A stretch of 64,000 bases of DNA from an uncultured Candidatus Saccharibacteria bacterium (lineage in GTDB: Bacteria > Patescibacteriota > Doudnabacteria > UBA920). A model generated the notes under the pieces. It ran no database searches and was not told the DNA's origin. It worked only from the letters and a program-made list of their open reading frames with translations. The translations under genes and the position numbers were made by a program. Shown here piece by piece: positions 4,144 through 64,000 of this stretch (positions are counted from its first letter, which is position 1; the number at the start of each line of letters is the position of its first letter). The stretch is from positions 212,480-276,479 of the forward strand of contig CAYQEU010000001.1 in NCBI GenBank assembly GCA_964416765.1. The letters run 5' to 3'.

Positions 4144-4169
4144 CTAAACCTGCCTTATTTAACGCTATA

Positions 4170-49837: not shown

Positions 49838-51196
49838 TTAAAAAGGTATATCATCTACAGAAACTTCTTTTTCAACTACCGGCATTAGGTCTTCTGCCTC
49901 TAGCCCCTCTAGCAACAAATTTGTATCTGCCTGTGGCAATTCTTGGACTGTTTTTAACTTTTTCTCAATAGTTCTAGATTTTTTAGCCGCATCTTCAATA
50001 GTATTACTTGCTTCACTCAACTTCTTTTGCGTTTTTTCTAAGATATCTCCAAATCTTCCAAACTCTGTCTTTACAGCTCCCAAAATTGACCAAACTTCTC
50101 CAGAACGTTTTTGAATAGCCAAAGTTCTAAAGCCCATTTGCAAACTATTTAACAGCGCACCTAAAGTCAAAGGGCTAGTAACTATTACTCTGCATTCTCG
50201 CTGGAGCATCTCGCATAATCCCGGCCTTCTGGCAACTTCTGCGTATAAGCTTTCATAAGGTAAAAATAGTATGCCGAAATCAGTGGTATGAGGAGGATTA
50301 ATATACTTATCTCTTATGGATCGTGCCTCTGTTTTGATTCTGATTTCTAGTTGTTTAGAAGCTGCTTCCACTAAATCGGCATCTGCATTTTCATAAGCTT
50401 CTACGAGTCTTTGATAATCTTCTTGCGGAAATTTAGCATCAATAGGCAACCAAATTGGTTGCTTTGAATCATCGGGTCCAGGCAGTTTAATAGCAAATTC
50501 AACACGTTCGTTGCTTCTAGGTTTAGTAGCAACATTTTTATCATATTGCTCAGGATTTAAAATTTGTTCCAAAAGCGAACCTAACTGAACTTCACCCCAT
50601 ATACCCCTAGTTTTTACGTTTGTTAAAACTTTCTTTAAGTCTCCAACACCTAAAGCAAGGTTCTGCATTTCTCCCAAACCTTTATGGACCAATTCCAATC
50701 TGTCGCTTACTAATTTAAATGAGTCTCCAAGTCTGCGTTCTAAGGTAGCGTGCAATTTTTCGTCTACGGTCGCACGCATTTTTTCTAACTTTTCCTCATT
50801 GCCTTTTTGTAGTGAATCTAGCTTTTTCTCAACCACATCTTTTACTTGATCCAGCTTCTTTTCACTCTTATCTGTCAGTCCGGTAATTGTTTTGGATAGA
50901 GCATCAAAGTTCTTATTTTGAGCTTCCGCAAATTCAAAATTTCTTTTATCTACCGAGTCTCCAAAAGTTTTAATGGTATTTGCTAATTCTTCTCTCGTTA
51001 TTTTATTGTTATTCGCTAGCTCGGTCCTATTAGTAGAAAACTCTTCTTTGACCGTTTTTTCGATGCGCTCGATAGTCTTATCAATGCTTGCATTAATACT
51101 TTGCTCAGGGTCAGTATTTTTACTTGCGTTTTTTATGACCAAATAAATAATAAGCCCTTCTAGCAAAACGGTAATAACAAGTAAAATAAGTATCAT
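49838..51196 (-). CDS. rmuC: RmuC-family DNA recombination protein (operon gene 2)
   Basis: N-terminal TM, long coiled coil, and the RmuC signature RGIWGEVQLGSLLEQIL (compare E. coli RmuC ..GNWGEVQLERvLE..). Confidence 0.7.
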   Translation of the reverse strand: MILILLVITVLLEGLIIYLVIKNASKNTDPEQSINASIDKTIERIEKTVKEEFSTNRTELANNNKITREELANTIKTFGDSVDKRNFEFAEAQNKNFDALSKTITGLTDKSEKKLDQVKDVVEKKLDSLQKGNEEKLEKMRATVDEKLHATLERRLGDSFKLVSDRLELVHKGLGEMQNLALGVGDLKKVLTNVKTRGIWGEVQLGSLLEQILNPEQYDKNVATKPRSNERVEFAIKLPGPDDSKQPIWLPIDAKFPQEDYQRLVEAYENADADLVEAASKQLEIRIKTEARSIRDKYINPPHTTDFGILFLPYESLYAEVARRPGLCEMLQRECRVIVTSPLTLGALLNSLQMGFRTLAIQKRSGEVWSILGAVKTEFGRFGDILEKTQKKLSEASNTIEDAAKKSRTIEKKLKTVQELPQADTNLLLEGLEAEDLMPVVEKEVSVDDIPF

Positions 51197-51222
51197 ATAT
51201 TTAACTTAATTAGTTTGAAAGA

Positions 51223-54200
51223 TTAAAGAATAGGTTTAATATTCATTTCATCCAATTTTTTCCATAAACTATCCAGAGCTTTTTCCTTGTTTCGATAAAA
51301 AGCACTACCCGTAACACGCCAGAACTCCCAGCCAGCTCTGCGTAATTGCCTTTCTCTTACTTGATCTTCTTCCCAATTCTCTAAAGTATGATATTGGTCA
51401 CCATCGCATTCTACCGCCAATCTAGATTCTTCACCCTGAACAACTAAATCAATTCTATACCCAATTACCGGATATTCAGGTAAGACCTGATATCCTTTAT
51501 CAATCAATAAGTTGCCAACATCAACGGAAAATTGAGAAGCCCTACCAGCGTCAAATTCTTTCTTAAGTGCTTCACGTCCAGCATGCAGTTCTTCTTTCTT
51601 TGGGTCATAGAACCAGTTCAATATCTTATATCTCCAATCATTTTGATTACCCAATGATTCCAAAGGTAAGGAATGGAATAAGAACATCTGATCACGAGCT
51701 CTCGAGGCGGCAACGTTAAATCTACGTTTTGCGTCTTCATTAGTTAACGGTGCTACCGTATCATTTTTGTCATTCGGATTTAAGGCGCGAACCATAGACA
51801 ATAGCATTACATCACGCTCATCGCCTTGAAACTTATAAGCATCACCACACTGAATCTGTCTTTCTTCAATTTCTTTTTCAGTAAGTACGCCTTGAACTAC
51901 GAGATTTCTTATTAACTTTTCAATGTATTTAGCCTGATCTTCAGCTAACAGAGAGATTATTCCAAAAGTGCACAATCGGCCATCGGGACGTTTCTGATAT
52001 TTTGGGTCTTTAAGACACTCCACTAATTTGTTTATAATTGCTTCTGCTTCGGGCTCGTTAACTTTGTTATTAGTATTTTGGTAGCCTTTTTCAATAAACA
52101 CCGGAACCAGTGCAGGCTTTAGTAAGCCCTTAGGATTAGGATAACGCAATGGTTTAAGCTTGCCCTCGTAAATATGGTGATTACTAAATGCAATGATTTC
52201 AGGAACGCATCGGAAGTGTTCATTAAGCTGAATAATATTAGATAGTCTAATTTTGGCTAAATCAAACAAACTAGAAGTAATGGAAAAGCTATCTTTGAAT
52301 GGAATATCAAATAAAAATCTAGAAATTAGCTCAAATATCCTTTCCTGATCTTGAAATATACCTGCGGGGCTTATTTGCTCAGGATCACCTACTACCAAGA
52401 GCTTCTTGCCTAAATACCCAATTGTTAAACCTCGGATATCGCATTGACTTGCTTCATCAAATATCACCACATCAAATAAACCAGGTTTAGGTTCTGCAAA
52501 CATTTGCGCCGCCCGATGCAAAGGCATGATCCAGACAGGTACAGCATTCTTGGCTTCTTTTAGAGCCTCTTGAGCTGCTCTTAAATGTGTAACCGCATAT
52601 TTGCCAGTACCTTTTCCATATTTTTTCATTTCATGCGACCAAGCCATTAAAGCGTCGCGCTGCGGTTTTGTAACCTTATCAATCTGTCTTTGCCAGGCGA
52701 GAACAGTAACCAGTTCTGAATTTAACTGGTATTCCTTTTTCGTAAGTCGTTCAAATCTATTTTGCAATTCGTCAATATCAATATGATCATGGATAGTATC
52801 CAACCATGATTCTAGTCTTGCTATTTTCCATGCCAGTTCTAAATTTTTAGGATAATTTAATTTTTTATGATGTTCTGCAAGTTCTTTTAGGTCAGAAAAA
52901 AGGTTGGGAGCAACTTTAGAAATTCTTGAAGAAATCTCCTTAAGCTTTATGGATTGATTTCTATTCTCATGAATAATGTTCAATTCTTCAAAGGATGCTT
53001 TCCATCCAGATGAACTCCTTTTTTGCAGAGCATCAATTAAGTTTTTAACTATCGGGTGCTTAGTTTTATCATTTACGGAATCTTGTAATTTTAGGGTCCA
53101 TCCGGAAAACAATTTTTCTAACTCGATAAGTTCAAATTTTGCTACTGTGGAAGTAATGATAGCTATGATCCTTTCTATATCAGTAGGACTGGTAAAAGAT
53201 AAGTCCGATAGTTCTTTCGTTTTCTGGCAAAAAGAGTTTATGCTAGCGTATTCATCGGTATAATTTACTATTCTATGCAGACTGGCACATAGTACTTCAA
53301 GTTTTACGATATCTACCAATATATCAAAATCGGGAGATGATTTAAGACCGGAAAAACTCTGTTCAAGTAAAAGTTCAATTTCCTTTTGTGCTTTGATGGC
53401 CTGTACGTAATGGCGGAACAGTTCAACACTTTCCTTTTCAGTAGGTGCACTTCCATTCACCGTGTAAGTTTCTAAGACTTTTTTAGCGATTGAGGGTAAG
53501 AGGATTTTATTTAAAGTAGTTATCTTTCCTCCATTTTTAACTTTTTCAAGTAAAGCATTTACTGCCTTATTTAGATCATTAATAGAAAGTTGCGTTTTAC
53601 CCTCAACTTCGTGACCTAATAAGGCATTGTGACAAGTGCCGATTAAACTTATTTTTTCGGAAATTTTCTCAATTACTGTCCGCCATTTTTCCTTTTCGTG
53701 AGTACTCGAAGCACAAAGATTAAAAATTTCTAACTCATATCCCTCACGAATCGAGTTTAGTAATTTCTTAGCATCTAGCAATTTATTCCATACGCTGGTT
53801 AATTCTGCTGGTTCAAATTCCAGGTTTTTATGATTGAATACTTCGCTAGAGGTTTGAGCTTTATTAGAAAGATCCCTATACGAAGCAAAGGCTTGTAATA
53901 CAGCTTCTTCGTCAGGTAACGTAGATAGCGGGGGTAATTCGTATTTATATAAATCTCTATCCTCTCGGGTTAAATGAGATAATAGTTCATGGCACGCAAC
54001 TATATCTTGATCCGTAAAATCAAGCTCTATCTTAAAATCTATATTATCAGTGAACCAATCAATATCGCCAGTTTTCCTATGTTTATTTACCAGCTGCGCC
54101 GCGTCAATTGGTTTAATGACTTCGTTACCAATATTTATTTCTGCAGTTGAGTCAGTGAGAATATAATGTCGTATCTGATTGGCTAGGTCTGCCTTTTCTG

Positions 54201-55842
54201 CTCGAACATCTTTTAGCTCCTTTCTAAAACGTTCCGCACGTTCCTCGCTAAATTTTGTGTGCCGCTCTCCTAAGTTTGAGCTTATTTCGCTAATTGATTG
54301 CTGGAGAACATCATCTCTCTTTGCAGTTTGGTGAAGTTGAGACACTGCCAAGCTACGAATATTTTCTGGTAGCTTATCTCTTAATACTTCTAGAGCCTTA
54401 CTTGTTTGGGAGGTAACTAAAACCGTCTTACCTTGCGCTAAGAAGCGGGATATTAGATTGGCAATCGTATGACTTTTACCAGTTCCGGGTGGACCTTTAA
54501 CTACAACACCATAATTTGAATCTAAACGTTCGGCAATTCTTTTTTGTTCATCATTCCACGGCAATGGGAAAAAGAGTTCTGATTCAGTAATTGACTTTTG
54601 TGCGGATCCGTCGGAAGATCCACTTTTGGTCTGTTCTTCATAGTCCCCAATAAGATCTTTGATAAACTCGGTGGGCTCAATATCACTTTGTTCTATATCT
54701 CTACGAATAAGTCCGGCGTATTTCGACCACAAGTCATTATTACGCTTACGTGCAAAAATAACTGGGGCATTCCAAATGGCTGGTACTTCTGTCAGCTCAG
54801 GAGCAGTTACCATTTGGTCAGTAAATTTATCTTCGCTATCGGTTGATATGTAATTGATTAGTGTTCTGCTTTGAGTTTTCAGAGATTGCAGATGCCAGAA
54901 ATCGAAAGGATTTGCATTAATTGCATCGGTCCAAGCAATAAGATCCATTTCCGCAGGATTATCCATTTCATACAGAGGAGACGTTTCTACAAATCCTCTA
55001 AACATCGTATCTGCAGAAATCTCAATGACTCGCTTGGAAGCATCAAAGTCAATTGTTAATGGAGTTAGGAAAACAGGAGCGTATATTGCACCCACAGACT
55101 TACTTTGCCACGTAAGAAGACCTTGACCCAACAGAAGCTCATAACTATCACCTTCATTTTTTAGCAATAGTCTTAGCGCATATAATTGATCGTATAAGAG
55201 GTTTGCTTTATAAACCTTTTTAACCTTATTTGCCCAAGGCTCCCAATCGTTTTTAATATAACCCTTTAATAATTTCTCGAGCTCAGGATGATCATTCCAA
55301 TGATCTTCTAGGTACTGAAGTTCAATATGCTCTGGTAAACTCTGTGGGTTGACGGTAACCCAATCTTCCAATATTTTAGGAATTCTTTGACCCTGCTCAT
55401 AGCTCTTTTTAAAATTTTTAAATTCGCTGATCCTATTTTTGTCTTGATCAAAACTTATTTGGCGATCTATTTTTTCTTTAGGCTTTGGCTGTGTAAGTGG
55501 TGTAACTTCTTCAATCCATTCTTCTAAAGCTTTTGGTAATACTGGCGCGCTCTTGATGTTCTTTTTCTCTACACGTAACCAAGCAGCAGACGAAGGGAGA
55601 ACCTCGGTATTACTTTCAGTTTCAAACGGCCTAATAGATAAGTTCTCCACATCTAATGGAAAATCAGCCAACCACCATGGAGATGGTGGGGTTGCAACAT
55701 TTCTAAAATCTCGGACTACTGCATCATCAAGAGATAAAGCCTTTTCTAAGTAAGTAAATAATCTTACTATCTTATTTCCCTGATCACTTATACTTTTAAC
55801 AGTAGGACCTTTTTGTTCTGTAAGAGGTACCTTATCGGACAT
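51223..55842 (-). CDS. 1539-aa SF1 helicase (Upf1/DNA2-like AAA_11/AAA_12) with N-terminal DUF4011-like region and C-terminal DUF559/Vsr-like PD-(D/E)xK endonuclease domain
   Basis: Walker A VVKGPPGTGKSHTIANL. Motif II VVIFDEASQ. Motif III LLVVGDPEQ. Motif VI FNVAASRARDQMFLFHS. C-terminal IGYRIDLVVQGEESRLAVECDGDQYH resembles the DUF559/Vsr nuclease module. Confidence 0.8.
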   Translation of the reverse strand: MSDKVPLTEQKGPTVKSISDQGNKIVRLFTYLEKALSLDDAVVRDFRNVATPPSPWWLADFPLDVENLSIRPFETESNTEVLPSSAAWLRVEKKNIKSAPVLPKALEEWIEEVTPLTQPKPKEKIDRQISFDQDKNRISEFKNFKKSYEQGQRIPKILEDWVTVNPQSLPEHIELQYLEDHWNDHPELEKLLKGYIKNDWEPWANKVKKVYKANLLYDQLYALRLLLKNEGDSYELLLGQGLLTWQSKSVGAIYAPVFLTPLTIDFDASKRVIEISADTMFRGFVETSPLYEMDNPAEMDLIAWTDAINANPFDFWHLQSLKTQSRTLINYISTDSEDKFTDQMVTAPELTEVPAIWNAPVIFARKRNNDLWSKYAGLIRRDIEQSDIEPTEFIKDLIGDYEEQTKSGSSDGSAQKSITESELFFPLPWNDEQKRIAERLDSNYGVVVKGPPGTGKSHTIANLISRFLAQGKTVLVTSQTSKALEVLRDKLPENIRSLAVSQLHQTAKRDDVLQQSISEISSNLGERHTKFSEERAERFRKELKDVRAEKADLANQIRHYILTDSTAEINIGNEVIKPIDAAQLVNKHRKTGDIDWFTDNIDFKIELDFTDQDIVACHELLSHLTREDRDLYKYELPPLSTLPDEEAVLQAFASYRDLSNKAQTSSEVFNHKNLEFEPAELTSVWNKLLDAKKLLNSIREGYELEIFNLCASSTHEKEKWRTVIEKISEKISLIGTCHNALLGHEVEGKTQLSINDLNKAVNALLEKVKNGGKITTLNKILLPSIAKKVLETYTVNGSAPTEKESVELFRHYVQAIKAQKEIELLLEQSFSGLKSSPDFDILVDIVKLEVLCASLHRIVNYTDEYASINSFCQKTKELSDLSFTSPTDIERIIAIITSTVAKFELIELEKLFSGWTLKLQDSVNDKTKHPIVKNLIDALQKRSSSGWKASFEELNIIHENRNQSIKLKEISSRISKVAPNLFSDLKELAEHHKKLNYPKNLELAWKIARLESWLDTIHDHIDIDELQNRFERLTKKEYQLNSELVTVLAWQRQIDKVTKPQRDALMAWSHEMKKYGKGTGKYAVTHLRAAQEALKEAKNAVPVWIMPLHRAAQMFAEPKPGLFDVVIFDEASQCDIRGLTIGYLGKKLLVVGDPEQISPAGIFQDQERIFELISRFLFDIPFKDSFSITSSLFDLAKIRLSNIIQLNEHFRCVPEIIAFSNHHIYEGKLKPLRYPNPKGLLKPALVPVFIEKGYQNTNNKVNEPEAEAIINKLVECLKDPKYQKRPDGRLCTFGIISLLAEDQAKYIEKLIRNLVVQGVLTEKEIEERQIQCGDAYKFQGDERDVMLLSMVRALNPNDKNDTVAPLTNEDAKRRFNVAASRARDQMFLFHSLPLESLGNQNDWRYKILNWFYDPKKEELHAGREALKKEFDAGRASQFSVDVGNLLIDKGYQVLPEYPVIGYRIDLVVQGEESRLAVECDGDQYHTLENWEEDQVRERQLRRAGWEFWRVTGSAFYRNKEKALDSLWKKLDEMNIKPIL

Positions 55843-55952
55843 AACGAATTTTGCGTTGGTAAATATGCCTTATTTTAGCATTTTTTATTCAATGTTTACA
55901 AAGGATAGACGTTCATAATCTATCCAAAAAGAATTTAGATTTTCTTTAACTT

Positions 55953-56594
55953 TTATTTATTTACGACCCATTCAGCTGGTAGATAACCAGAAAGACCTAC
56001 TTTATCTTTATCAACGTCGTTAACTCCAGCGAGAATCCTCACTCTTCGGTACGGAAAACTTTTATCAATGAGCTGTACTTTTGATCCGTTGCCTACACAA
56101 AATGCACCGGGAATTTCTAAAAGGCCTAGAAAATCTTTGGCTGCAAGAGCCTTGCCGATAGCTTCAGCGTCATCTTTAGTTTTACCAAGACAGATATTTT
56201 GATCAGTGCCGTCGTATCCCGGAATACGAAGATAACCTTGATCACCAACTTTCATACTTTCCCAATCCCCACCGGTTGCAGCGGTAGTAGCAGGTTGATT
56301 ACCATTTTGAATTTCTGCGGACTTTTGTCGGGCACTATCTTTTGAGCTGCTGGCTATACCAATAACAATTGGCAGTCCAAACAATAAAAGTAGTGCGGTT
56401 AATACTTTATGCCTGCTGAACCAGTTTCTTAAATCACTCTGACACTGGGGACACTTCTTGGCCGTGGCATTGATTTCTGATTTGCAATGCGGACACACCT
56501 TAGTTGCTTGCATTCTTGTAGCATGGTCTTTCCGGCAAACGGATAAACAAAAGGGGCTACCCGCTTGCCTGACAGCCCCTTTCGGAACTGCCAA
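55953..56594 (-). CDS. Zn-ribbon membrane protein (N-terminal CPHC..CPQC, one TM, extracytoplasmic domain)
   Basis: CPHCKSEINATAKKCPQCQ then a TM (VLTALLLLFGLPIVIGIA). The start is ambiguous between M1 at 56594 and M28 at 56513. Confidence 0.45.
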   Translation of the reverse strand: MAVPKGAVRQAGSPFCLSVCRKDHATRMQATKVCPHCKSEINATAKKCPQCQSDLRNWFSRHKVLTALLLLFGLPIVIGIASSSKDSARQKSAEIQNGNQPATTAATGGDWESMKVGDQGYLRIPGYDGTDQNICLGKTKDDAEAIGKALAAKDFLGLLEIPGAFCVGNGSKVQLIDKSFPYRRVRILAGVNDVDKDKVGLSGYLPAEWVVNK

Positions 56595-57057
56595 CCAACC
56601 TTTCGGCTGGTGACCATGCTACTGGAAGCAAGACGGATAGCCGCCTTCATGTAGCATGGTTCTTGCGCCATACCTCGCATTTCTACGAGGGTTAGGACAT
56701 TAATTTGTTAAGCTAATTATACGATATTTTGACGATTCCGTATAATCCCGTCCATCCTATACTATTCCCCTGATTTTGCGAAGTCCCAAGTTATCAACAA
56801 GTTTTCTTGCGTTTCCAAAGGCTTTATGGTAATTTTTAAATACAAATTAATACATGCGAGGTTCTGCCCGGTTTCGCTCAGATTTTCCCGGAAGTAGTAC
56901 GCACCTATCACTGCGGTACTTCCAGACTCAGGATTCATAGACCCATGTTGGGGTACAACACCTTTTGGTGTCGTACTTCCACGTCCGTGGCCTCAAAGAA
57001 GTAACCGACCCAAAGGGGTCGGATTTTTGTTAATAGGCCGCGAGAAAGAAAAAATAT

Positions 57058-58341
57058 ATGGCAACGAATAAGTTGCAAATCCAGCAAGTTAGTATTGGAC
57101 TGCTTAAGCCCGCGCTTTATAACCCGAGGAAACACACGCCTCAGGCTATGGAGCAATTAAAAGCATCGATTAAGAGGTTCGGGTTAGTCGATCCCATTAT
57201 CGCCAATGGTGCTGCAAGCAGAAAGAATATTGTCATAGGAGGACACTTTAGACTGAAAGCTGCTAAAGAACTTGGATATAAACAAGTTCCGGTAGTTTAC
57301 TTAAACATTCCAAATGTTAAAAAAGAAACTGAATTAAATCTTCGGCTCAACCGCAATACGGGAGAATGGGATTTCGAGCTACTCAAGTCCTTCGATATGG
57401 ATCTGCTGCTGGATGTCGGCTTTGATGATACCAACCTTTCAAGTATTTGGAATGATACGCTGCAAACTGAGGATGATGAATTCGACGTTGAAAAAGAATT
57501 AAAGAAAACCAAGAAACCGAAAACCAAACCGGGCGAAATCTACCAGCTCGGCAGCCATAGATTAATCTGCGGCGATTCAACAAACGTAGATGTTGTAAAA
57601 ATCTTACTTGGCAAAAATCAGGCTGACATGGTTTACTGCGATCCGCCTTTCAATATTTCTCTGGACTACGACAAAGGCATCGGCAACAATGTTGGCAAAT
57701 ACGGCGGAATTCATACCAATGATAACCGGACGGATTTGGAATATCGCAAGTTCCTCAAAGCAACAATGGAAAATGGCTTAGCAGTTTCCAAGAAAAATTT
57801 ACACATATTCTACTTCTCCGACGAAACCTACATCGGTATGATCCAATCTTTATTTGCAGAATTAGGCCTGCAAAATCGTAGGGTTTGTATGTGGGTAAAG
57901 AATAACCAAAACCCTACACCGCAAATTGCTTTCAACAAGGTCTATGAACCAGTAACCTATGCGACCCGAGGCAATCCATACCTCGCTAAGATCGTGACTA
58001 ATCTTAACGAGATTTTGAATAAGGAGGTAGGTACTGGCAACCGTGTCCATGACGATATTTTAGACCTCTTTAATATCTGGCTCGCCAAGCGCAAAGCCGG
58101 ACAAGATTACAACCACCCAACCGAGAAACCGCCAACGCTTCATGAGAAAGCTTTGCGCCGTTGCACTAAACCTGGCAATTTAGTCTTAGATTTATTCGGC
58201 GGTAGTGGATCAACTTTGGTTGCGTGCGAGCAGCTCAAGCGCAAGTGCTTCTTGGTAGAATTCGAACCGATCTTTTGCGATCTGATTATTAAGCGTTTTG
58301 AAAAGCTAACGGGCATTAAAGCCAAGAAGTATGAAAACTAA
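57058..58341 (+). CDS. ParB-like nuclease domain fused to DNA N6-adenine/N4-cytosine methyltransferase (beta-class)
   Basis: ParB/Srx box IVIGGHFRLKAAKELG. MTase motif IV VYCDPPFN precedes motif I DLFGGSGST. Confidence 0.8.
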   Translation: MATNKLQIQQVSIGLLKPALYNPRKHTPQAMEQLKASIKRFGLVDPIIANGAASRKNIVIGGHFRLKAAKELGYKQVPVVYLNIPNVKKETELNLRLNRNTGEWDFELLKSFDMDLLLDVGFDDTNLSSIWNDTLQTEDDEFDVEKELKKTKKPKTKPGEIYQLGSHRLICGDSTNVDVVKILLGKNQADMVYCDPPFNISLDYDKGIGNNVGKYGGIHTNDNRTDLEYRKFLKATMENGLAVSKKNLHIFYFSDETYIGMIQSLFAELGLQNRRVCMWVKNNQNPTPQIAFNKVYEPVTYATRGNPYLAKIVTNLNEILNKEVGTGNRVHDDILDLFNIWLAKRKAGQDYNHPTEKPPTLHEKALRRCTKPGNLVLDLFGGSGSTLVACEQLKRKCFLVEFEPIFCDLIIKRFEKLTGIKAKKYEN

Positions 58342-58747
58342 GCAGCAAAAACAACTGCTTCTAGAGCAGCTCAAGAAAACGCCAATTGTTCAGGTTGCCT
58401 GTGAAAAGACTGGGGTCGGCAGGGCAACCTACTATCGCTGGATGAAAGATGATAAAGCCTTTGCCAAAGAGGCCGAAGAAGCCTTGCAAGCTGGAAGTCT
58501 CATGGTCAACGATATGGCTGAAAGCCAGCTTATGGCAGCCATTCGGGATAAAAATATGACGGCAATTATCTTTTGGCTGAAACACCATCATCCGACCTAC
58601 GGCACGAGAATAGAAATAAACGGACACTTAAAAACTTCTTTTGAAGAATTAACACCAGAGCAAGAAGCCTTAGTCCGTAAGGCTTTGAGGCTCGCAGCCT
58701 TGGATACTAATACCTATGATAATGGAAACACAAAACATACTCCCTGA
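58331..58747 (+). CDS. terminase small subunit-like HTH protein
   Basis: N-terminal HTH (VACEKTGVGRATYYRW). 138 aa. Overlaps the TerL start. Confidence 0.45.
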   Translation: MKTKQQKQLLLEQLKKTPIVQVACEKTGVGRATYYRWMKDDKAFAKEAEEALQAGSLMVNDMAESQLMAAIRDKNMTAIIFWLKHHHPTYGTRIEINGHLKTSFEELTPEQEALVRKALRLAALDTNTYDNGNTKHTP

Positions 58748-60233
58748 CCTCATTACTAAGATCATCAAGGACAAAGCAGTCAGAATTCAGGTAACTACAC
58801 AAAGCCACTTTTGGTTTTTCAACGTCTACTTTAGCGATTACGTAAGATATCAGACTGCCCCTTTCCAGCGAGAAATGTTTGCACTGAGCGAAGACGAAAC
58901 GATAAAAAATTTGGTTGTAGTGGCATTTCGCGGGTCTGGCAAAACCACCATATTTAATCAATCGTATCCGCTTTGGGCGATCCTCGGAAAACAACAGAAG
59001 AAATTCGTTCTTATACTTGCCGAGACTATGAATCAAGCCCGGCAAATATTAAAAAATATCAAGGAAGTTTTAGAAACCAATGACTTGCTTCGCAGAGACT
59101 TAGGGCCGTTCACTGAGGAGGAAACGAGGAACTCATCTACCATTAACTTCCTCAATTACAAAGCCAAAATTATGGTTGCTTCCAAAGAAAGCAGCATTCG
59201 CGGTATTAAGCACGGAGCACATCGGCCAGATTTGATCATCCTCGACGATATTGAAGATATTAATTCTGTTAAAACCCGCGAATCGAGAAACAACACATAT
59301 ACCTGGCTGACTGGAGATGTAATGCCGCTCGGCGACCCAAAGACTCGCCTGATCTTTATTGGTAATCTTCTGCATGAAGACTCACTCTTAATGCGGCTTA
59401 AAAATGGCATAGATGAAGGTAAGCTACGGGGTCAATATCGGCTATACCCTTTGGTGCAAGATGACAAAATTTTATGGCCCGGCATGTACCCAACAATGGA
59501 CGATATCGAGCAGTTGAGATTAAGCCAGGGAAACGAAATTGCATTCCAACGCGAGTACATGCTTAGAATTATTCCGGATGAAGACTGGGTAGTACAACCT
59601 GAGTGGATACAATACTACGACGTACTGCCAGACAGCAAATACCATGACTACACCTGTATTGGCATCGACCTTGCTATTTCAGAAAAAGAAGCTGCTGATT
59701 ATACTGCCATGGTACCGGCATTGGTAACCGGCAACAGAGATAATTTGAAAGTTTTTATCTTGCCCATGATTATTAACAAACGGCTAACGTTCTTAGAAAC
59801 ACAGGAGGAAGCAAAAAATCTCTCTATGGGTATTGGGAGCGGCAGGCGTGCAAAAATCTATGTCGAAGATGTTGCGTATCAGCGGGCATTCATCCAAGCG
59901 ATACACGCTGCCGGATTTCCTGTAAAAGGCGTTTCAGTGCACGGCCAAGACAAACGCGCAAGGCTTAATGCCAATGTATACCTTGTCCAAGCTGGCAAAG
60001 TTTTCTTTCCGACAAAAGGTGCAGAACTTCTAATCCAGCAACTCGTTCATTTTGGCGTGGAAAAGCATGATGACTTAGCAGACGCTTTTGGCATACTGCT
60101 ATCCAAAATCATTGAGGAAGATAACAAGGGAGGTATGGTCATAACTGGAACTTCGTACAGAAACCGATCGGACTGGAATACGCTCAACAGCAGGCAAAAA
60201 CATATGTTACAGGAAAGACACGGGGGTTATTAG
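58716..60233 (+). CDS. phage terminase large subunit (Terminase_6-like)
   Basis: ATPase P-loop VVAFRGSGKTT. Walker B LIILDDIEDI. C-terminal RNaseH-like nuclease acidic residues (VEDVAY.., HDDLADAF). Confidence 0.75.
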   Translation: MIMETQNILPDLITKIIKDKAVRIQVTTQSHFWFFNVYFSDYVRYQTAPFQREMFALSEDETIKNLVVVAFRGSGKTTIFNQSYPLWAILGKQQKKFVLILAETMNQARQILKNIKEVLETNDLLRRDLGPFTEEETRNSSTINFLNYKAKIMVASKESSIRGIKHGAHRPDLIILDDIEDINSVKTRESRNNTYTWLTGDVMPLGDPKTRLIFIGNLLHEDSLLMRLKNGIDEGKLRGQYRLYPLVQDDKILWPGMYPTMDDIEQLRLSQGNEIAFQREYMLRIIPDEDWVVQPEWIQYYDVLPDSKYHDYTCIGIDLAISEKEAADYTAMVPALVTGNRDNLKVFILPMIINKRLTFLETQEEAKNLSMGIGSGRRAKIYVEDVAYQRAFIQAIHAAGFPVKGVSVHGQDKRARLNANVYLVQAGKVFFPTKGAELLIQQLVHFGVEKHDDLADAFGILLSKIIEEDNKGGMVITGTSYRNRSDWNTLNSRQKHMLQERHGGY

Positions 60234-60415
60234 AGCCTAAAAAGTTACCAACAGGGCGTCCTGGACGCATCAAGAGGGTTCTGGCATCAATATACCGTAA
60301 GGAAAATTAACAATTCTTGCGGTAAGACCGCTGACAATAAGGCAAAACAGCGGATAGAGCGTGTAATATCACCTTTCCTAAACCTTTTTAGGCATGGAAG
60401 CAAAACCTTCCAGAG

Positions 60416-61723
60416 ATGCGCCGCAAGCCCAAAACAATGGAATTAGTACCAACCCAAACCAAATATTGCCTGTATGCTCGTAAGAGTACTGAGGACTCTT
60501 CCGAAAAACAGGCTTTGTCCATAGATTCTCAGGTCAAAGAAATGCTGGCTATTGCCGAGCGCGAAAATCTAGATGTCATAGACATTCGCCGCGAAGCCCA
60601 TTCGGCTAAGGATTCAGGACAGCGGCCAGTATTCCGCGAGCTATTATCGGATATTCGAAGCGGCAGGTTTAATGGTATTTTGACGTGGGCGCCGGATCGA
60701 CTGAGCCGTAATGCCGGAGACTTAGGGTCGGTGGTCGATTTAATGGATGAGAAGCTGCTAGTGGAAATAAAGACGTACGGCCAAACATTTAAGAATTCAC
60801 CGAACGAAAAGTTTTTACTGATGATTCTTTGCAGTCAAGCGAAACTAGAAAACGATAACAAGAGTATTAATGTAAAAAGAGGTTTGAGGACAAGATGCGA
60901 AATGGGATTATGGCCAGCCCCTGCGCCCATGGGTTACTTAAACGAAAAGAAAGTTGATAGAAAAGGCTATTTGATAATTGATCAAGAGCGTGCGCCAATT
61001 ATCAAACAAATGTTTGAAAAAGTAGCTTACGAAAAATGGAGCGGCCGCAAACTTTATCATTGGCTGAAGTTCGACCTTAATTTTAAAACTCCATTAGGCA
61101 ATAAAGGGTTAACCTTAAGCAATATTTACATAATTCTTCAAAATACTTTTTATTATGGCGATTTTGAGTTTCCCAGAAAAAGCGGTATCTGGTACAAAGG
61201 CAAGCACGAACCAATAATTAGTAAGGAACTGTTTGGCTTAGTTCAAGAACAAGTCAGGACGAATGTTATAAGGGTGGAAGACAAAGAATTTGCTTTTACA
61301 AAACTAATGACCTGCGGTTTATGCGGTTCGGGTGTTTCAGCTGATGAGAAATTCAAGAAGCAGAAAAACGGAAATATTCACCGCTATATCTATTACGGCT
61401 GCACGAAATCCCGAGACAAACACTGCAAAAGTGGGTATATTTCTGAAGATGATTTAATCACACAACTAGAAAAACTAGTGGATAAAGTTGACTTCAGCGA
61501 AGCAGATATTAAAGAGAAAATAAAGCATGAGGTAACGCGCTTCAAAAAGTTCCAGCAGTATGTAATTGGCGCAAAAGAAAAAATAGTTATCGGGAATATT
61601 GATATTCAAAACTATACGAAGTTTATTTTTAGGGAGGGTAGCAATACCGAGAAACGTGAACTGCTTACTTGTTTTAAAAACGATATACAAATTAATAGCA
61701 AGGAGGTTATCTTAGTCCAATAA
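60416..61723 (+). CDS. large serine recombinase (integrase/resolvase family)
   Basis: Catalytic motif YARKSTEDS..Q, recombinase domain, and Zn-ribbon CGLCGSG..YYGC. 435 aa. Confidence 0.8.
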   Translation: MRRKPKTMELVPTQTKYCLYARKSTEDSSEKQALSIDSQVKEMLAIAERENLDVIDIRREAHSAKDSGQRPVFRELLSDIRSGRFNGILTWAPDRLSRNAGDLGSVVDLMDEKLLVEIKTYGQTFKNSPNEKFLLMILCSQAKLENDNKSINVKRGLRTRCEMGLWPAPAPMGYLNEKKVDRKGYLIIDQERAPIIKQMFEKVAYEKWSGRKLYHWLKFDLNFKTPLGNKGLTLSNIYIILQNTFYYGDFEFPRKSGIWYKGKHEPIISKELFGLVQEQVRTNVIRVEDKEFAFTKLMTCGLCGSGVSADEKFKKQKNGNIHRYIYYGCTKSRDKHCKSGYISEDDLITQLEKLVDKVDFSEADIKEKIKHEVTRFKKFQQYVIGAKEKIVIGNIDIQNYTKFIFREGSNTEKRELLTCFKNDIQINSKEVILVQ

Positions 61724-61755
61724 GCGCATTATATTTTATAATCAACTACCTAATC

Positions 61756-62664
61756 TCATTCAATTTTTCTACCATCTCTCACCCCCAAAATATGGGGCCA
61801 CTCCATCCCGTCTTTTATCGTCCAATATAAGGATGGGTGACCGTTTAAATGTTTAAACCTTAATTCGCAGTCGGTAAGCGTTTTAGTCCTTCTGCGAATA
61901 AGGTAAGCATTAAGCCATCGCTTAGCAGCCGGCATTGACTGAAAACTTTTAATAGATTTAAGTCTCGCTTGTAAATGGGAATTATAGAGCTCGACTAAGT
62001 TTGTATCTCTCGGACAGTCTTTAATGGTTAGGTACTGAAACAGAATATCTCTGCGATCGTTAATTTCAAAAATTATATCCCTGACTTTTTGGTCGTCTTT
62101 GCCATAGCGATCAAGCACATACCGCATGGCACCAGTAATTGCCATATCCGTCTGCGCTTCCAAGAATACCCTATTCCTAAGGCTTGCAAAGAATTGATGA
62201 TAGGTGTCTTCCGTCCTTACCCGAAGAAAACGTCTTAGATTTTCTAAAAAGTGATTTTGGCAAAGTTGTATCTTAGCAAACGGATACGCCTTGGCCAGTG
62301 CTGACTTAACCGTCATTCGATCATCGCACACCACCACCTTGAGTGGATAACCACACTTCTTCAACTGTCGAAATATTTCAGTGAACGCTAAATGACTTTC
62401 AGACTTTGCCAACACCCCGACCGGGATATCATGGGTAAGGTAATCAATACCATAAATGAACGGTATCTTCTGGTTTTGATCTGCGACCTTCACAAACTTA
62501 CCGTCTAACACCAAAATACCAGAGAACTTTCGTGGGTCACAAAACTGTTCAGTTAGGGCAGTATTGTCAGGTAAGGTATTGAGTTGAGATACAACGTGAA
62601 CATACGCATCGGACCCTGATATATTATACTCGTCACCCAGTTTTCTAAAAGGTACACCATCCAC
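61756..62664 (-). mobile_element. IS256/Mutator-like DDE transposase, C-terminal ~300 aa. The N-terminal ~130 aa appears to sit in another frame at 62704-63090, so the gene is probably frameshifted or a pseudogene
   Basis: D (LVLDGKF), D (VVCDDRM) and the signature C-terminal TNLVELYNSHLQARLKSIKSF (TNxxExxN). The catalytic region begins near residue 50 of this ORF. Confidence 0.45.
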
Positions 62665-63184
62665 GTATTGGGATCCACAAAATCGGTGGTCTGGCGCCGT
62701 GATTTATCGAGAATGACTTATGACATGACTTACAAAAATATCGCTTCCGGCTTCCTTCGCTGCCGCGCTTAATAGTTCGCTTGCTACCACAGAGCAAGCA
62801 TTTTGGGTTCTTTTTTTTAACATTGCTGAGGCTAACTTAATTATTAAATTTCCCATAATTATAACAAAAATCCGGTCGAGTGTCGATGCTTTCCGCATTG
62901 CATTGTGTTGAAGATAACGTTCACGTTTGAGTGCTTGGACCGGCAATCGGCTTGACAACCAGTAAGGTGCGGAAAAAATTTCATCTAAGAAAGTATTATA
63001 TTTTGTTAGCAATTTCAAAAAGTAGAAATTAGATACATACAGTAAACACAATATGTTTAAGGTATATATCTGAATTTTACAAACGATCACTAGTCAAACC
63101 ACGATTTTGTCGCTCATCTGTGAGCGGCTTTTTAATTTGACGCACGAAAATTTAAACGGAAAGCGGATCCGTCCGTCCATGACA

Positions 63185-63214
63185 TTGCATGTAAATATGG
63201 AGTGCTGGTATAAT
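63185..63214 (+). promoter_or_regulatory. sigma70-like promoter TTGCAT-18-TGgTATAAT
   Basis: Near-consensus -35 with an extended -10, pointing rightward into the structured non-coding region. Confidence 0.5.
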
Positions 63215-63220
63215 ATTCAG

Positions 63221-63525
63221 TAGAAAAGCCTAAACTCTGCAATTTTGCAGAGCATGGCATTATCCTCAGCAACAGAGACGGCTCTCCGACCGCCACTCGT
63301 TGCTGAGGTGCCCAATCGCAAGGTTGGGAGACGGTACCCGAAAGGGTGCCGCCGGTAGGTAGGGGGGCCCTTTTTGAATCCCTGCCTACCAAAATAACCT
63401 CAGCAACAACCAACGAAATAAAAAGTAAACATGGCCGCAAAGGGCTCCCCCTCCATTTTCGGTCAATACTGCTTATAAAACAAAAGGTTGCTACTGCTGA
63501 GACTGCTGCTCAGCAGTTTTATTTT
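63221..63525 (+). ncRNA. candidate structured non-coding RNA of ~300 nt, unidentified family
   Basis: Sits between the promoter and a terminator (ctgctgag-actgctg-ctcagcag + TTTTATTTT, 63494-63525). Contains a 5' palindrome (63235-63252), mutually exclusive helices built from three CCTCAGCAAC or GTTGCTGAGG elements, a GAAA-tetraloop hairpin whose G.U pair only works on the + strand (63333-63350), and GC-rich stems. Confidence 0.45.
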
Positions 63526-64000
63526 GTCTAGCCAATTCTGCGTTCTCTTTCCAAACACTATACTTTTCCACCAAAGTTTGTCGGAGCTCATACGTATTAC
63601 CGTGGCTTAGAAGCCCTAAATATGACTGCAAAGTTTCATTTCTTGGATTCTGCTTCACTCTACGGAAAGCTCTTCGTTCTGTACTTTTCCGTACGATTCT
63701 ATGAGTGGGAAAATGAACCCAGCCTAGAAAATCAACACCGGAAGCGAGAGGTTTAATAAATAACTTATCCGGATGTAAAGACAGATGCAAGTTTGTTTCT
63801 AAATAAGTAGAAATGTTGGGAATCAAATTTTCTAAATAAGAGCGATCGTGATGGAATATTACAAAATCATCTGCATAGCGGATACAATGCTGGACTTTCA
63901 GTTTCCGCTTCAAAAACTGATCGAATTCATTCATGTAAACATTCACTAAAAGCTGCGAGGTCAGGTTACCAAGCGGCAAACCTATATTGGGCCTGCCTTG
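63491..64000 (-). CDS. reverse transcriptase, partial (N-terminus beyond window end), with diversity-generating-retroelement-type motifs
   Basis: The frame stays open to the window edge: ..QGRPNIGLPLGNLTSQLLVNVYMNEFD (RT motif 4 with SQ rather than the SP seen in group II and retron RTs) then IRYADDFVIF (motif 5 YxDD). The ORF track starts at 63979 only because the frame runs off the window. Confidence 0.8.
   Translation of the reverse strand, partial: QGRPNIGLPLGNLTSQLLVNVYMNEFDQFLKRKLKVQHCIRYADDFVIFHHDRSYLENLIPNISTYLETNLHLSLHPDKLFIKPLASGVDFLGWVHFPTHRIVRKSTERRAFRRVKQNPRNETLQSYLGLLSHGNTYELRQTLVEKYSVWKENAELARQNKTAEQQSQQ

What the first reader, a model, noticed from the sequence alone, without database searches (positions are those of the whole stretch)
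63185..63525. Structured ~300-nt RNA with its own promoter and terminator, convergent with the RT
A TTGCAT-18-TGgTATAAT promoter fires rightward into a region with the following features:
- a start-proximal palindrome;
- three copies of CCTCAGCAAC or GTTGCTGAGG arranged so that the middle copy can pair with either flanking copy (switch-like alternative helices);
- a GAAA-tetraloop hairpin whose G.U pair is valid only on the + strand;
- a GC-rich stem;
- a canonical hairpin plus U-tract terminator whose stem is encoded by the last codons (QQSQQ) of the convergent RT.

It matches neither RNase P, tmRNA, SRP nor 6S RNA by eye. It could be a novel sRNA, a retroelement-associated RNA (for example a DGR template-bearing transcript in unusual orientation), or an IS-associated regulatory RNA.
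Basis: seen in the sequence. Interest (0 to 1): 0.6.

Follow-up and report, generated by a model that had tools for sequence, protein, structure and literature searches.

The report
LOOT leader RNA on mobile island
The flagged region is a real structured RNA with its own promoter, but it belongs to an already catalogued family of unknown function (LOOT RNA, Rfam RF03000). Comparing it with about 115 relatives suggests that LOOT is a gene-control leader carried on integrase-bearing mobile islands of ultra-small (CPR) bacteria, not part of the neighbouring reverse transcriptase system.

Summary
**Observation:** confirmed. Window 63227-63350 (+) matches Rfam LOOT RNA (58.2 bits, threshold 46.4). 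A second, diverged copy lies at 56571-56698 (-).

- palindrome = P1
- the three 10-mers = the two arms of P2 plus a downstream repeat of the 5' arm
- GAAA hairpin = P4
- GC stem = a hairpin holding a pseudoknot strand and a U-tract

**RT link:** the convergent RT is a genuine DGR RT, but its TR and VR lie on its other side, beyond the window end. LOOT is not its template.

**Findings from 115 distinct LOOTs, nearly all from Patescibacteria:**
- A 10-bp pseudoknot joins the P2 apex to a tail followed by a U-run. All 10 pairs covary and 97% of cells are paired.
- Nearly every LOOT sits 0-75 nt upstream of a same-strand ORF, and these ORFs are heterogeneous, accessory-type genes.
- In 40/117 a copy of the P2 5' arm is present, usually 1-8 nt before the ATG.
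- 48/115 loci carry a large serine recombinase, often about 190 nt away and divergent.

**Best reading:** a cis-acting attenuator/translation switch for cargo genes of a mobile island. The window copy has lost its gene.

**Verdict:** new member of a known kind. The mechanism is inferred, not shown.

The parts
63185..63214 (+). Promoter of LOOT copy B: -35-like TTGCAT (63185-63190), 18-nt spacer, extended -10 TGgTATAAT (63206-63214). Predicted start about 63221.
   Evidence: Sequence read. Not listed by the consensus scan because the -35 is 3/6. -10 boxes are common at this position across the family.
63109..63138 (+). Terminator-like hairpin plus T-run just upstream of the LOOT B promoter. It would insulate LOOT B from upstream transcription.
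63227..63350 (+). LOOT RNA core (Rfam RF03000), copy B. P1 63227-63259, with receptor-like CCUAAA/CAUGG internal loop. P2 arms 63264-63273 and 63299-63308. P3 63310-63329 (GCAA loop). P4 63333-63350 (GAAA loop).
   Evidence: 58.2 bits, threshold 46.4, full-length model match. Helices covary in 115 sequences.
63280..63287 (+). Pseudoknot 5' strand GGCTCTCC, in the apex of P2.
   Evidence: Pairs with 63362-63369. The family helix has 10 pairs, all with compensatory changes, and 97% of cells paired.
63354..63390 (+). Its loop carries the pseudoknot 3' strand GGGGGGCC (63362-63369) and a U-tract (63371-63375).
63398..63407 (+). Third copy: exact repeat of the P2 5' arm (CCTCAGCAAC), able to pair with the P2 3' arm. 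In complete units this repeat sits 1-8 nt before the start codon.
63431..63478 (+). 15-codon ORF (MAAKGSPSIFGQYCL), 23 nt after the third copy. Probably not a real gene; it sits where relatives carry the cargo ORF.
   Evidence: this copy is the outlier for distance to an ORF.
63493..63527 (+). Intrinsic-terminator-like hairpin plus T-run that ends the read-through transcript. It overlaps the last RT codons and stop.
63491..64000 (-). C-terminal half of a DGR-type reverse transcriptase, convergent with LOOT. A neighbour, not part of the RNA.
   Evidence: Complete gene, bAvd, TR and VR are in L186.
56511..56721 (-). LOOT copy A with its complete leader. -10 TATAAT 56721-56716. Rfam core 56698-56571. 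P2 arms 56659-56650 and 56622-56614. Pseudoknot 56642-56635 with 56562-56555. U-tract 56552-56545. P5 56569-56561 with 56542-56534. Third copy 56526-56517. ATG 56513-56511.
55953..56513 (-). Cargo gene of copy A: a 186-aa zinc-ribbon protein with a membrane-like segment.
57058..61723 (+). Island core between the two outward-facing LOOTs: ParB-DNA methyltransferase (57058-58341), small terminase-like (58331-58747), large terminase (58716-60233), large serine recombinase/integrase (60416-61723).
   Evidence: The same genes neighbour LOOT in many other loci.
61756..62797 (-). Mutator-family (IS256-like) transposase in two frames. Probable IS insertion separating the recombinase gene from LOOT B.
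   Evidence: In L193, L296 and L202 the recombinase stop is only 68-88 nt before LOOT.

Best explanation
The feature is a copy of LOOT RNA (Rfam RF03000), made from its own promoter.

**Fold.** Four hairpins. P1 carries a tetraloop-receptor-like internal loop. P2 is long. P3 and P4 are GNRA-capped. A fifth helix, not in the Rfam model, joins the apex of P2 to a tail about 10-25 nt after P4. This pseudoknot helix is followed immediately by a U-run.

**Role.** I read LOOT as a cis-acting 5' leader for accessory ('cargo') genes of mobile islands in Patescibacteria. These islands carry a large serine recombinase and often terminase and ParB-methylase genes.

**Inferred mechanism.**
- A weak local hairpin at the P2 apex forms first.
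- When the tail is transcribed, it can displace that hairpin and form the GC-rich pseudoknot.
- With the U-run, the pseudoknot acts as an intrinsic terminator. Where the ATG is close, it also buries a Shine-Dalgarno-like tail.
- In about a third of leaders, read-through RNA carries a copy of the P2 5' arm right at the start codon. The P2 3' arm can pair with either copy, so the state of P2 decides whether the start region is free.
- An unknown effector or condition that holds the Rfam fold (P2 plus apical hairpin) would give both read-through and translation.

**The window copies.** Copy A (56.5-56.7 kb) is a complete unit in front of a zinc-ribbon membrane protein gene. Copy B, the finding, has the full leader but no gene. 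It runs into a terminator inside the 3' end of a convergent DGR RT gene. I take it to be an orphan leader or short RNA at the island's edge.

**Shown:** family membership, the helices including the pseudoknot, the repeat, and the gene and island context.
**Inferred:** termination, switching, polarity, and the existence of an effector.
For: **Membership**
- 58.2 and 59.9 bits against a threshold of 46.4, both full-length.
- 18 of 18 relatives tested pass at 73-95 bits.

**Strand**
- The P4 T.G pair.
- 428 of 2875 cells in P1, P3 and the pseudoknot are G.U.

**Pseudoknot**
- On a structure-blind MAFFT alignment of 115 distinct sequences, all 10 pairs show changes on both sides and 97% of cells are paired. 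Sliding the partner by 1-3 columns drops pairing over the whole structure to 39-46%.
- The longest apex:tail helix is 9-16 bp in most sequences, against 6-7 bp with swapped or shuffled tails.
- Between the two window copies the helix changes compensatorily: GGCTCTCC/GGGGGGCC versus GGCTATCC/GGGTAGCC.

**U-run:** at least 5 T in the 10 nt after the helix in 105/117.

**Local apex hairpin**
- Mean -6.2 kcal/mol, overlapping 4-7 nt of the pseudoknot strand in most of the 113 sequences analysed (range 2-11).
- The pseudoknot duplex averages -17.2 kcal/mol.

**Leader role**
- All 105 LOOTs with enough flank have a same-strand ATG ORF.
- Median distance from pseudoknot end to ATG is 44 nt. About 90% are within 75 nt and 23 are within 25 nt.

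**Repeat**
- Present at >=9/10 identity in 40/117. A 10/10 match occurs in 36/121 distinct sequences and never in swapped controls.
- At least 15 different arm sequences are involved.
- The gap to the ATG is 1-8 nt in 35/38.
- The two pairings are nearly iso-energetic: mean difference +1.8 +/- 3.2 kcal/mol.

**Cargo:** heterogeneous. Zinc-ribbon membrane proteins, DNA methylases, nucleases, a superinfection-immunity protein; 54/89 have a membrane-like segment.

**Island link**
- A recombinase homologue is in 48/115 loci.
- 20 are divergent with their start 125-570 nt from LOOT; 3 are tandem with the stop 68-88 nt upstream.
- Phage-type terminase, ParB-methylase and integrase assignments.
Against: - No transcript data exist. 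Termination at the pseudoknot U-run is inferred from its form only.
- If the pseudoknot terminator belongs to the native fold, the polarity of the two controls conflicts unless the apical hairpin state is the 'on' state. That is my assumption.
- Two-thirds of LOOTs lack the repeat.
- Some spacers of 60-140 nt are AT-rich and could hold a separate promoter for the ORF.
- The downstream genes share no pathway, which is unlike a metabolite riboswitch.
- Copy B and L318 have no ORF at all, so LOOT can persist as a stand-alone RNA.
- The 115 sequences were collected with a strict pattern that fixes several positions and helix lengths, so they are a biased sample of the family.
- I could not read the original description of LOOT (its supplement is not held). 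I cannot say whether the pseudoknot was already noted there.
Confidence: 0.6

Rival explanations
1. LOOT is a stand-alone, trans-acting small RNA, as Rfam labels it. It ends at the pseudoknot plus U-run, and the ORFs behind it are separate genes. The repeat of the P2 arm would be a target site or a by-product.
For: - Rfam type is 'Gene; sRNA'.
- A strong GC helix plus U-run follows the core in nearly all members.
- ORF-less copies exist: window copy B and L318.
- Some long AT-rich spacers contain TATAAT-like boxes before the ORF.
Against: - In the native fold the P2 3' arm is paired, so it is not free to act in trans.
- P2 sequences differ between copies even within one genome, so only the local repeat matches.
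- 23/105 ORFs start within 25 nt of the helix, which leaves no room for a promoter.
- The repeat sits 1-8 nt from the ATG in 35/38.
Confidence: 0.2
2. The RNA belongs to the diversity-generating retroelement, either as a template or primer RNA, or as an antisense regulator of the RT mRNA.
For: - LOOT B converges on the RT, and its read-through terminator lies in the last RT codons.
- Homologous RTs (41-48% identity) lie convergent downstream of LOOT in L293, L240 and L318.
- The third copy can pair with GGTTGCTACTGCTGAG, which overlaps the terminator's 5' arm.
Against: - TR and VR lie on the other side of the RT, on the RT strand, with A-specific differences.
- The region has no repeat in the window.
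- LOOT is on the opposite strand to the RT.
- Copy A and more than 110 other LOOTs have no RT nearby.
- In L293 and L240 a cargo ORF lies between LOOT and the RT.
Confidence: 0.07
3. The conserved sequence acts at the DNA level as a recombination or attachment site for the neighbouring serine recombinase. The hairpins would be incidental inverted repeats.
For: - Tight linkage and fixed spacing to the recombinase gene.
- Two outward-facing copies flank the island in the window.
- A similar pair occurs in L337.
Against: - 15% of helix cells are G.U, which is meaningful only in RNA of this strand.
- Helices covary with no sequence conservation, unlike protein-bound att sites.
- The conserved nucleotides are those of a tetraloop and receptor.
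- A promoter precedes the element, and a U-run and ORF follow it.
- In five loci a tRNA gene lies beyond the recombinase stop, a more usual integration target.
Confidence: 0.05
4. LOOT has no switch and no effector. It is a constitutive 5' structural module that stabilises the mRNA and insulates transcription of cargo genes. The alternative pairings would be tolerated by-products.
For: - The downstream genes are heterogeneous.
- The conserved nucleotides are mostly structural: the receptor and the GNRA loops.
- No conserved junction core is evident.
Against: An exact 10-12-nt repeat of the P2 arm, which changes whenever P2 changes and sits at the start codon, is hard to keep without selection for alternative pairing.
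Confidence: 0.15

Closest known systems
LOOT RNA motif (Rfam RF03000; from Weinberg et al. 2017, PMC5737381; shown as a metagenome-based family in PMC7779021)
   Same: Full-length match above the curated threshold for both window copies. Same P1-P4 layout, the conserved CCUAA...AUGG loop, and two GNRA hairpins.
   Different: The window copies score lower (58-60 bits) than most relatives (73-95). The apical part of P2 fits the model poorly. The features I add (pseudoknot plus U-run, start-codon repeat, recombinase-island context, Patescibacteria hosts) lie outside the Rfam model. I could not check them against the original description.
Translational 'on' riboswitch expression platforms, such as the Vibrio vulnificus add adenine riboswitch (own knowledge)
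   Same: One strand of an aptamer helix can pair either with its partner in the aptamer or with the start region of the mRNA. The start region therefore resembles the displaced strand, as with the P2 arm repeat here.
   Different: No ligand is known or implied. The regulated genes share no pathway. The switching helix is an internal hairpin (P2), not the closing P1.
Pseudoknot riboswitches that bury the ribosome-binding site (SAM-II, preQ1-II) and intrinsic-terminator attenuators (own knowledge)
   Same: A 3' tail pairs with a hairpin loop. The tail is G-rich and Shine-Dalgarno-like in some members, and it is followed by a U-run.
   Different: Here the helix spans two whole hairpins (P3 and P4) and competes with a local apical hairpin. 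Termination has not been tested.
Prophage 'morons': accessory genes with their own promoter and terminator at the ends of temperate elements (own knowledge)
   Same: A stand-alone promoter-leader-gene unit at the edge of an integrase and terminase island. The cargo includes methylases, superinfection immunity and membrane proteins.
   Different: Morons are not known to share a conserved structured leader RNA. That shared leader would be the new aspect.

Membership tests
LOOT RNA (Rfam RF03000) | Covariance-model score at or above the curated gathering score (46.4 bits), with a full-length match | tested here: met
   63227-63350 (+) 58.2 bits, model 1-121/121. 56571-56698 (-) 59.9 bits.
LOOT RNA (Rfam RF03000) | P1 hairpin with the conserved asymmetric internal loop CCUAA / AUGG | tested here: met
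   Across 115 sequences the loop covaries as A/C (90), C/U (15), C/C (10). Its likeness to the 11-nt GAAA receptor is from my own knowledge.
LOOT RNA (Rfam RF03000) | Long P2 hairpin followed by two short GNRA-capped hairpins (P3, P4) | tested here: met
   P2 has 10 bp, P3 a GCAA loop, P4 a GAAA loop. P3 is 97% paired with 7/8 covarying pairs. P2 shows 67% on the MAFFT alignment because of register shifts, but 106/121 have a perfect 10-bp arm match.
LOOT RNA (Rfam RF03000) | Apical extension of P2 (P2a) as drawn in the model | tested here: inconclusive
   There are many non-standard pairs in both window copies. A local hairpin is possible in all members, but it overlaps the pseudoknot strand.
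DGR template repeat (TR) / DGR RNA | A near-repeat (VR) elsewhere that differs at adenines of the TR | tested here: not met
   63185-63525 has no repeat in the window. The real TR/VR pair is at L186 14528-14658 and 14981-15112.
DGR template repeat (TR) / DGR RNA | Same strand as the RT gene | tested here: not met
   The RNA is on +, the RT on -. G.U pairs fix the RNA strand.
Retron msr-msd RNA | Located next to and on the same strand as a retron-type RT, with flanking a1/a2 inverted repeats | tested here: not met
   The RT is DGR-type, with bAvd, TR and VR. The RNA is convergent, and most LOOTs have no RT nearby.
Group II intron RNA | Match to intron domains flanking the RT ORF | tested here: not met
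   No Rfam intron hit at the gathering threshold or at E<=1 in 55800-64000.
Metabolite riboswitch | Conserved structured domain consistently upstream of genes on the same strand | tested here: met
   105/105 have a same-strand ORF; median distance 44 nt.
Metabolite riboswitch | Downstream genes form a coherent pathway that points to a ligand | tested here: not met
   41 Pfam families among 89 ORFs, with no common pathway.
Metabolite riboswitch | Ligand binding changes the structure | not testable with these tools
   Needs in-line probing or a similar assay.
Intrinsic terminator | GC-rich helix immediately followed by a U-run | tested here: met
   A canonical one at 63493-63527. The pseudoknot helix plus U-run at 63362-63375 has the same form but with a distant 5' strand. 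Function not tested.

The most novel reading that the evidence does not exclude
LOOT is a new class of riboregulator dedicated to the cargo genes of serine-recombinase mobile islands in Patescibacteria. An effector-sensing 'on' switch sets the choice between a local apical hairpin and a long-range pseudoknot. That choice sets transcription read-through. A start-codon copy of the P2 arm then couples the same fold to translation. The effector could be an island- or host-encoded signal tied to the element's state.
Probability: 0.3. Interest if true: 0.7.

Novelty: new member of a known kind. Interest (0 to 1): 0.5.

Why it matters
LOOT has been an orphan, metagenome-only RNA family with no host and no proposed role. 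I found no functional study in the searchable literature.

This window and its relatives:
- Place LOOT in named Patescibacteria genomes.
- Tie it to a recurrent mobile island (integrase, terminase, ParB-methylase).
- Add a strongly covarying pseudoknot and a start-codon repeat, which turn 'unknown sRNA' into a specific attenuator/translation-switch model.

The model can be tested with simple termination and reporter assays. If confirmed, it would be one of the few regulatory RNAs described for CPR bacteria, and a shared control module for accessory genes of mobile elements.

For the scan itself, the lesson is that the RT next door is a coincidental, or at most loosely linked, neighbour.

Tried and rejected
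- **Viral contigs (IMG/VR).** Three pattern scans gave only chance matches; none had the P1 or P3 hairpins. LOOT as defined by these patterns is therefore not represented there.
- **VR/TR-like repeats.** I looked for repeats of the region in the window and found none.
- **Other Rfam families.** A permissive scan of 55800-64000 gave nothing else except a chance-level mgtC-leader hit at E=0.74.
- **tRNA or tmRNA as an integration target.** None in the window or in L186.
- **Literature.** LOOT appears only in the discovery paper, where my text search found the word only in the reference list, as an author's surname, in the Rfam 14 paper (a figure legend) and in one methods paper. The discovery paper's supplement, which holds the description, is not available. 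Searches on Patescibacteria prophages and structured RNAs found nothing relevant.
- **P4-to-P5-loop pairing (AAAGGG/CCCUUU).** I first thought the P4 3' arm paired with the P5 loop. I dropped this for the P2-apex pseudoknot, which covaries. The GAAA/U-run complementarity is expected from composition alone.
- **Self-cleaving ribozyme or small insertion with target-site duplication.**
  - Ribozyme: no conserved junction core.
  - Insertion with duplication: P1 lies outside the repeats.
- **Operator or att-like signals.** An alignment of the recombinase-LOOT intergenic region shows a conserved extended -10 for LOOT and a palindrome, but nothing I could interpret further.
Full report
**1. What is in the sequence**

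- A TTGCAT-18-TGgTATAAT promoter lies at 63185-63214.
- The hairpin CTCTGCA/TGCAGAG lies at 63235-63252.
- The 10-mer CCTCAGCAAC occurs at 63264-63273 and again at 63398-63407. Its complement GTTGCTGAGG lies at 63299-63308.
- A GAAA-capped hairpin at 63333-63350 has a T.G pair that works only on the + strand.
- A GC-rich stem pairs 63354-63364 with 63380-63390.
- A hairpin plus T-run at 63493-63527 overlaps the RT stop codon.

The 310-nt stretch folds far better than shuffles, z = -7.8.

**2. Identity**

A scan of the whole window against Rfam gives only two hits, both to LOOT RNA (RF03000).

| Copy | Position | Score (threshold 46.4) |
|---|---|---|
| B (the finding) | 63227-63350 (+) | 58.2 bits |
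| A | 56571-56698 (-) | 59.9 bits |

Both are full-length matches.

|---|---|
| Palindrome | P1 |
| First two 10-mers | The two arms of P2 |
| GAAA hairpin | P4 |

The internal loop of P1 (CCUAAA...CAUGG) closely resembles the classical 11-nt GAAA-tetraloop receptor, CCUAAG/UAUGG (own knowledge). Most invariant nucleotides of the family are therefore tertiary-structure scaffold.

LOOT is listed by Rfam as a metagenome-based sRNA (PMC7779021). I found no paper on its function. The supplement of the discovery paper that describes it is not held.

**3. Not part of the retroelement**

A public contig with the same proteins (L186) extends the window.

- The RT is complete there, and a bAvd gene lies beside it.
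- A TR/VR pair lies at L186 14528-14658 and 14981-15112, at the 3' end of a 709-aa target gene.
- TR T's on the + strand are replaced in the VR, which is adenine mutagenesis on the RT strand.

So a real DGR lies just right of the window. Its template is on the far side of the RT and on the other strand. Nothing in the window repeats 63185-63525.

A homologous RT is convergent downstream of LOOT in three other loci (L293, L240, L318). The adjacency therefore recurs, but more than 110 other LOOTs have no RT nearby.

**4. Relatives**

Pattern scans of viral contigs gave only chance hits. A stricter pattern matched both window copies and none of the 100 shuffles.

- It found 41 loci in species-representative genomes and 110 in metagenomes.
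- Record titles name almost only Patescibacteria/CPR lineages: Paceibacteria, Saccharibacteria, Uhr-, Falkow-, Nomura-, Doudna- and Roizmanbacteria, and WWE3.
- About 142 of 155 matches have an intact P1 hairpin.
- All 18 loci that I re-scanned pass the Rfam threshold at 73-95 bits.

This sample is biased by the pattern, which fixes several nucleotides and helix lengths.

**5. A pseudoknot outside the Rfam model**

In both window copies a segment in the apex of P2 is complementary to a segment after P4.

| Copy | P2-apex strand | Tail strand |
|---|---|---|
| B | GGCTCTCC | GGGGGGCC |
| A | GGCTATCC | GGGTAGCC |

The difference between the two copies is compensatory.

- Across 117 LOOTs, the longest apex:tail helix is 9-16 bp in nearly all. 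With swapped or shuffled tails it is 6-7 bp.
- On a structure-blind MAFFT alignment of 115 distinct sequences, the helix has 10 pairs. All 10 have changes on both sides, and 97% of cells are paired.
- Sliding the partners by 1-3 columns drops pairing to about 40%.
- The helix is followed at once by a T-rich run: at least 5 T of the next 10 nt in 105/117.
- The apex can also form a weak local hairpin, mean -6.2 kcal/mol. This corresponds to the apical part of P2 in the Rfam model and uses 4-7 nt of the pseudoknot strand in most of the 113 sequences analysed (range 2-11). The pseudoknot duplex averages -17.2 kcal/mol.
- G.U pairs make up 15% of cells in P1, P3 and the pseudoknot, so the constraint is on RNA of this strand.

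**6. LOOT sits in front of genes**

All 105 LOOTs with at least 400 nt of flank have a same-strand ATG ORF.

- The median distance from the end of the pseudoknot to the ATG is 44 nt.
- About 90% are within 75 nt.
- 23 are within 25 nt, which leaves no room for a separate promoter.
- In some of these the G-rich tail (GGGGAG) lies at Shine-Dalgarno distance from the ATG.

The ORFs are diverse:

- zinc-ribbon membrane proteins (9 of 89)
- DNA methyltransferases (6)
- secreted nucleases
- DUF4352
- trypsin-like peptidases
- a superinfection-immunity protein

54/89 have a membrane-like segment.

Copy A fits this pattern: its leader ends 3 nt before the ATG of a 186-aa zinc-ribbon protein. Copy B is the outlier. 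Only a 15-codon ORF follows (63431-63478), then the terminator inside the RT gene.

**7. The three 10-mers**

The downstream repeat of the P2 5' arm is a family feature.

- It is present at >=9/10 identity in 40/117.
- A perfect 10/10 match occurs in 36/121 distinct sequences and never when arms are swapped between loci.
- At least 15 different arm sequences show it, so the repeat changes whenever P2 changes.
- In 35/38 cases the repeat ends 1-8 nt before the ATG, and no Shine-Dalgarno sequence is present.
- With nested-only energies, the P2 3' arm pairs about equally well with either copy: mean difference +1.8 +/- 3.2 kcal/mol.
- In copy A the minimum-energy fold uses the downstream copy. In copy B it uses the upstream one.

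This is the layout of a translational switch.

**8. Mobile-island context**

Between the two outward-facing window copies lie four genes with phage-family matches:

- a ParB-DNA methylase
- a small terminase
- a large terminase
- a large serine recombinase (integrase)

Searching these proteins against the 115 LOOT loci gave the following.

- The recombinase is in 48 loci.
- In 42 of those 48 it lies upstream of LOOT.
- 20 are divergent, with the recombinase start 125-570 nt from LOOT (mode about 190).
- 3 are tandem, with the recombinase stop 68-88 nt before LOOT.
- Six loci repeat the arrangement of copy A: cargo <- LOOT, then ParB-methylase, terminases, recombinase.

Copy B matches the tandem arrangement if the frameshifted Mutator-family transposase (61756-62797) is taken as a later IS insertion.

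In five loci a tRNA gene lies 420-570 nt beyond the recombinase stop. That is a plausible integration site. The window has no tRNA.

The rest of the window is ordinary chromosome: Ddl, a penicillin-binding protein, a GTPase.

**9. How it most likely works**

The steps below are inferred, not shown.

- LOOT is transcribed from its own promoter as the 5' leader of a cargo gene at the edge of the island.
- The compact fold forms co-transcriptionally. P1's receptor presumably docks a GAAA loop.
- The local apical hairpin forms first.
- When the tail emerges it can take over the apex strand. This makes a GC-rich helix next to a U-run, which I read as an intrinsic terminator.
- Where the ATG is close, the same helix acts as a trap for the ribosome-binding region.
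- In the repeat-bearing third of the family, read-through RNA is translated only if P2 stays closed, because an open P2 3' arm captures the start region.
- All three platform types give one polarity if the Rfam fold (P2 plus apical hairpin) is the 'on' state and the pseudoknot or open-P2 states are 'off'.

What stabilises the 'on' state is unknown. The mixed cargo argues against a metabolite of one pathway.

Copy B would make a ~150-nt RNA ending near 63375 and a minor ~305-nt read-through RNA ending at 63527.

**10. Rivals**

- **Stand-alone sRNA.** This remains possible, given the strong terminator form and the ORF-less copies. It does not explain the start-codon repeat or the very short spacers.
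- **DGR template role.** Excluded (section 3). An antisense effect of read-through RNA on the RT 3' end is possible but rests on two loci.
- **DNA-level recombination site.** Unlikely, given the G.U pairs and sequence-free covariation.
- **Constitutive stabiliser or insulator without switching.** This fits the structural nature of the conserved bases but not the maintained repeat.

**11. Verdict**

- The object is a new member of a known but uncharacterised family.
- The added value is comparative: host phylum, island linkage, pseudoknot, and switch layout.
- These make the function of LOOT testable.

Noticed in passing
L186 13076-17081 (window coordinate = L186 + 50415, so from 63491 to beyond the window end): A complete diversity-generating retroelement. 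[quoted passage not shown] The Avd orientation is unusual.
   Followed up: partly
window 61756-62797 (-): A Mutator-family (IS256-like) transposase split into two overlapping frames (302 aa and 50 aa). It looks like an IS insertion between the serine recombinase gene and LOOT B. Ends and inverted repeats were not mapped.
   Followed up: partly
window 56860-57045: The region between the LOOT A promoter and the ParB-methylase gene contains two hairpins that both start with GGAAGTAC, plus a bidirectional terminator-like hairpin at 57005-57022. It has no Rfam match, and it may be another small RNA or a regulatory site.
   Followed up: no
L245, L206, L194, L200, L199 (tRNA positions): A tRNA gene lies 420-570 nt beyond the stop of the serine recombinase gene, convergent with it, in five loci. 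This may be the integration site of these islands.
   Followed up: partly
L337 6354-6475 (-) and 14066-14187 (+): Two outward-facing LOOT copies lie 7.6 kb apart, as in the window. Here a tmRNA gene (9226-9625) and a tRNA gene lie between them.
   Followed up: no
L247 1-125 and 7368-7422: A 7.4-kb metagenome contig begins and ends with nearly the same LOOT sequence and carries a distant serine recombinase. It may be a circular or excised form of such an island.
   Followed up: no
L242 ~4083-4160 (+): A LOOT P1 hairpin is fused directly to the ORF MARNLKRYYQAWELRQ..., with the ATG inside the CATGG of the receptor loop. It looks like a deletion of the LOOT core between short repeats (ATGGCAAGAAAT).
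   Followed up: no
L276, L225, L257, L223, L271 (intergenic region between the recombinase start and LOOT): A 14-bp perfect palindrome, TGCATAGCTATGCA, is conserved in the ~190-nt divergent promoter region. It may be an operator.
   Followed up: no
window 49838-55842 (-): A 1539-aa protein with superfamily-1 helicase domains and a C-terminal MTES_1575/DUF559 nuclease domain lies next to an RmuC gene, directly beyond the cargo gene of LOOT A. The pairing looks defence-like.
   Followed up: no
alignment A1, columns 9 and 28 (window 63234 and 63253): The two variable positions of the receptor-like loop in P1 co-vary as A/C (90), C/U (15) and C/C (10), and never A/U. None of these is a standard pair, which suggests a tertiary constraint.
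   Followed up: partly
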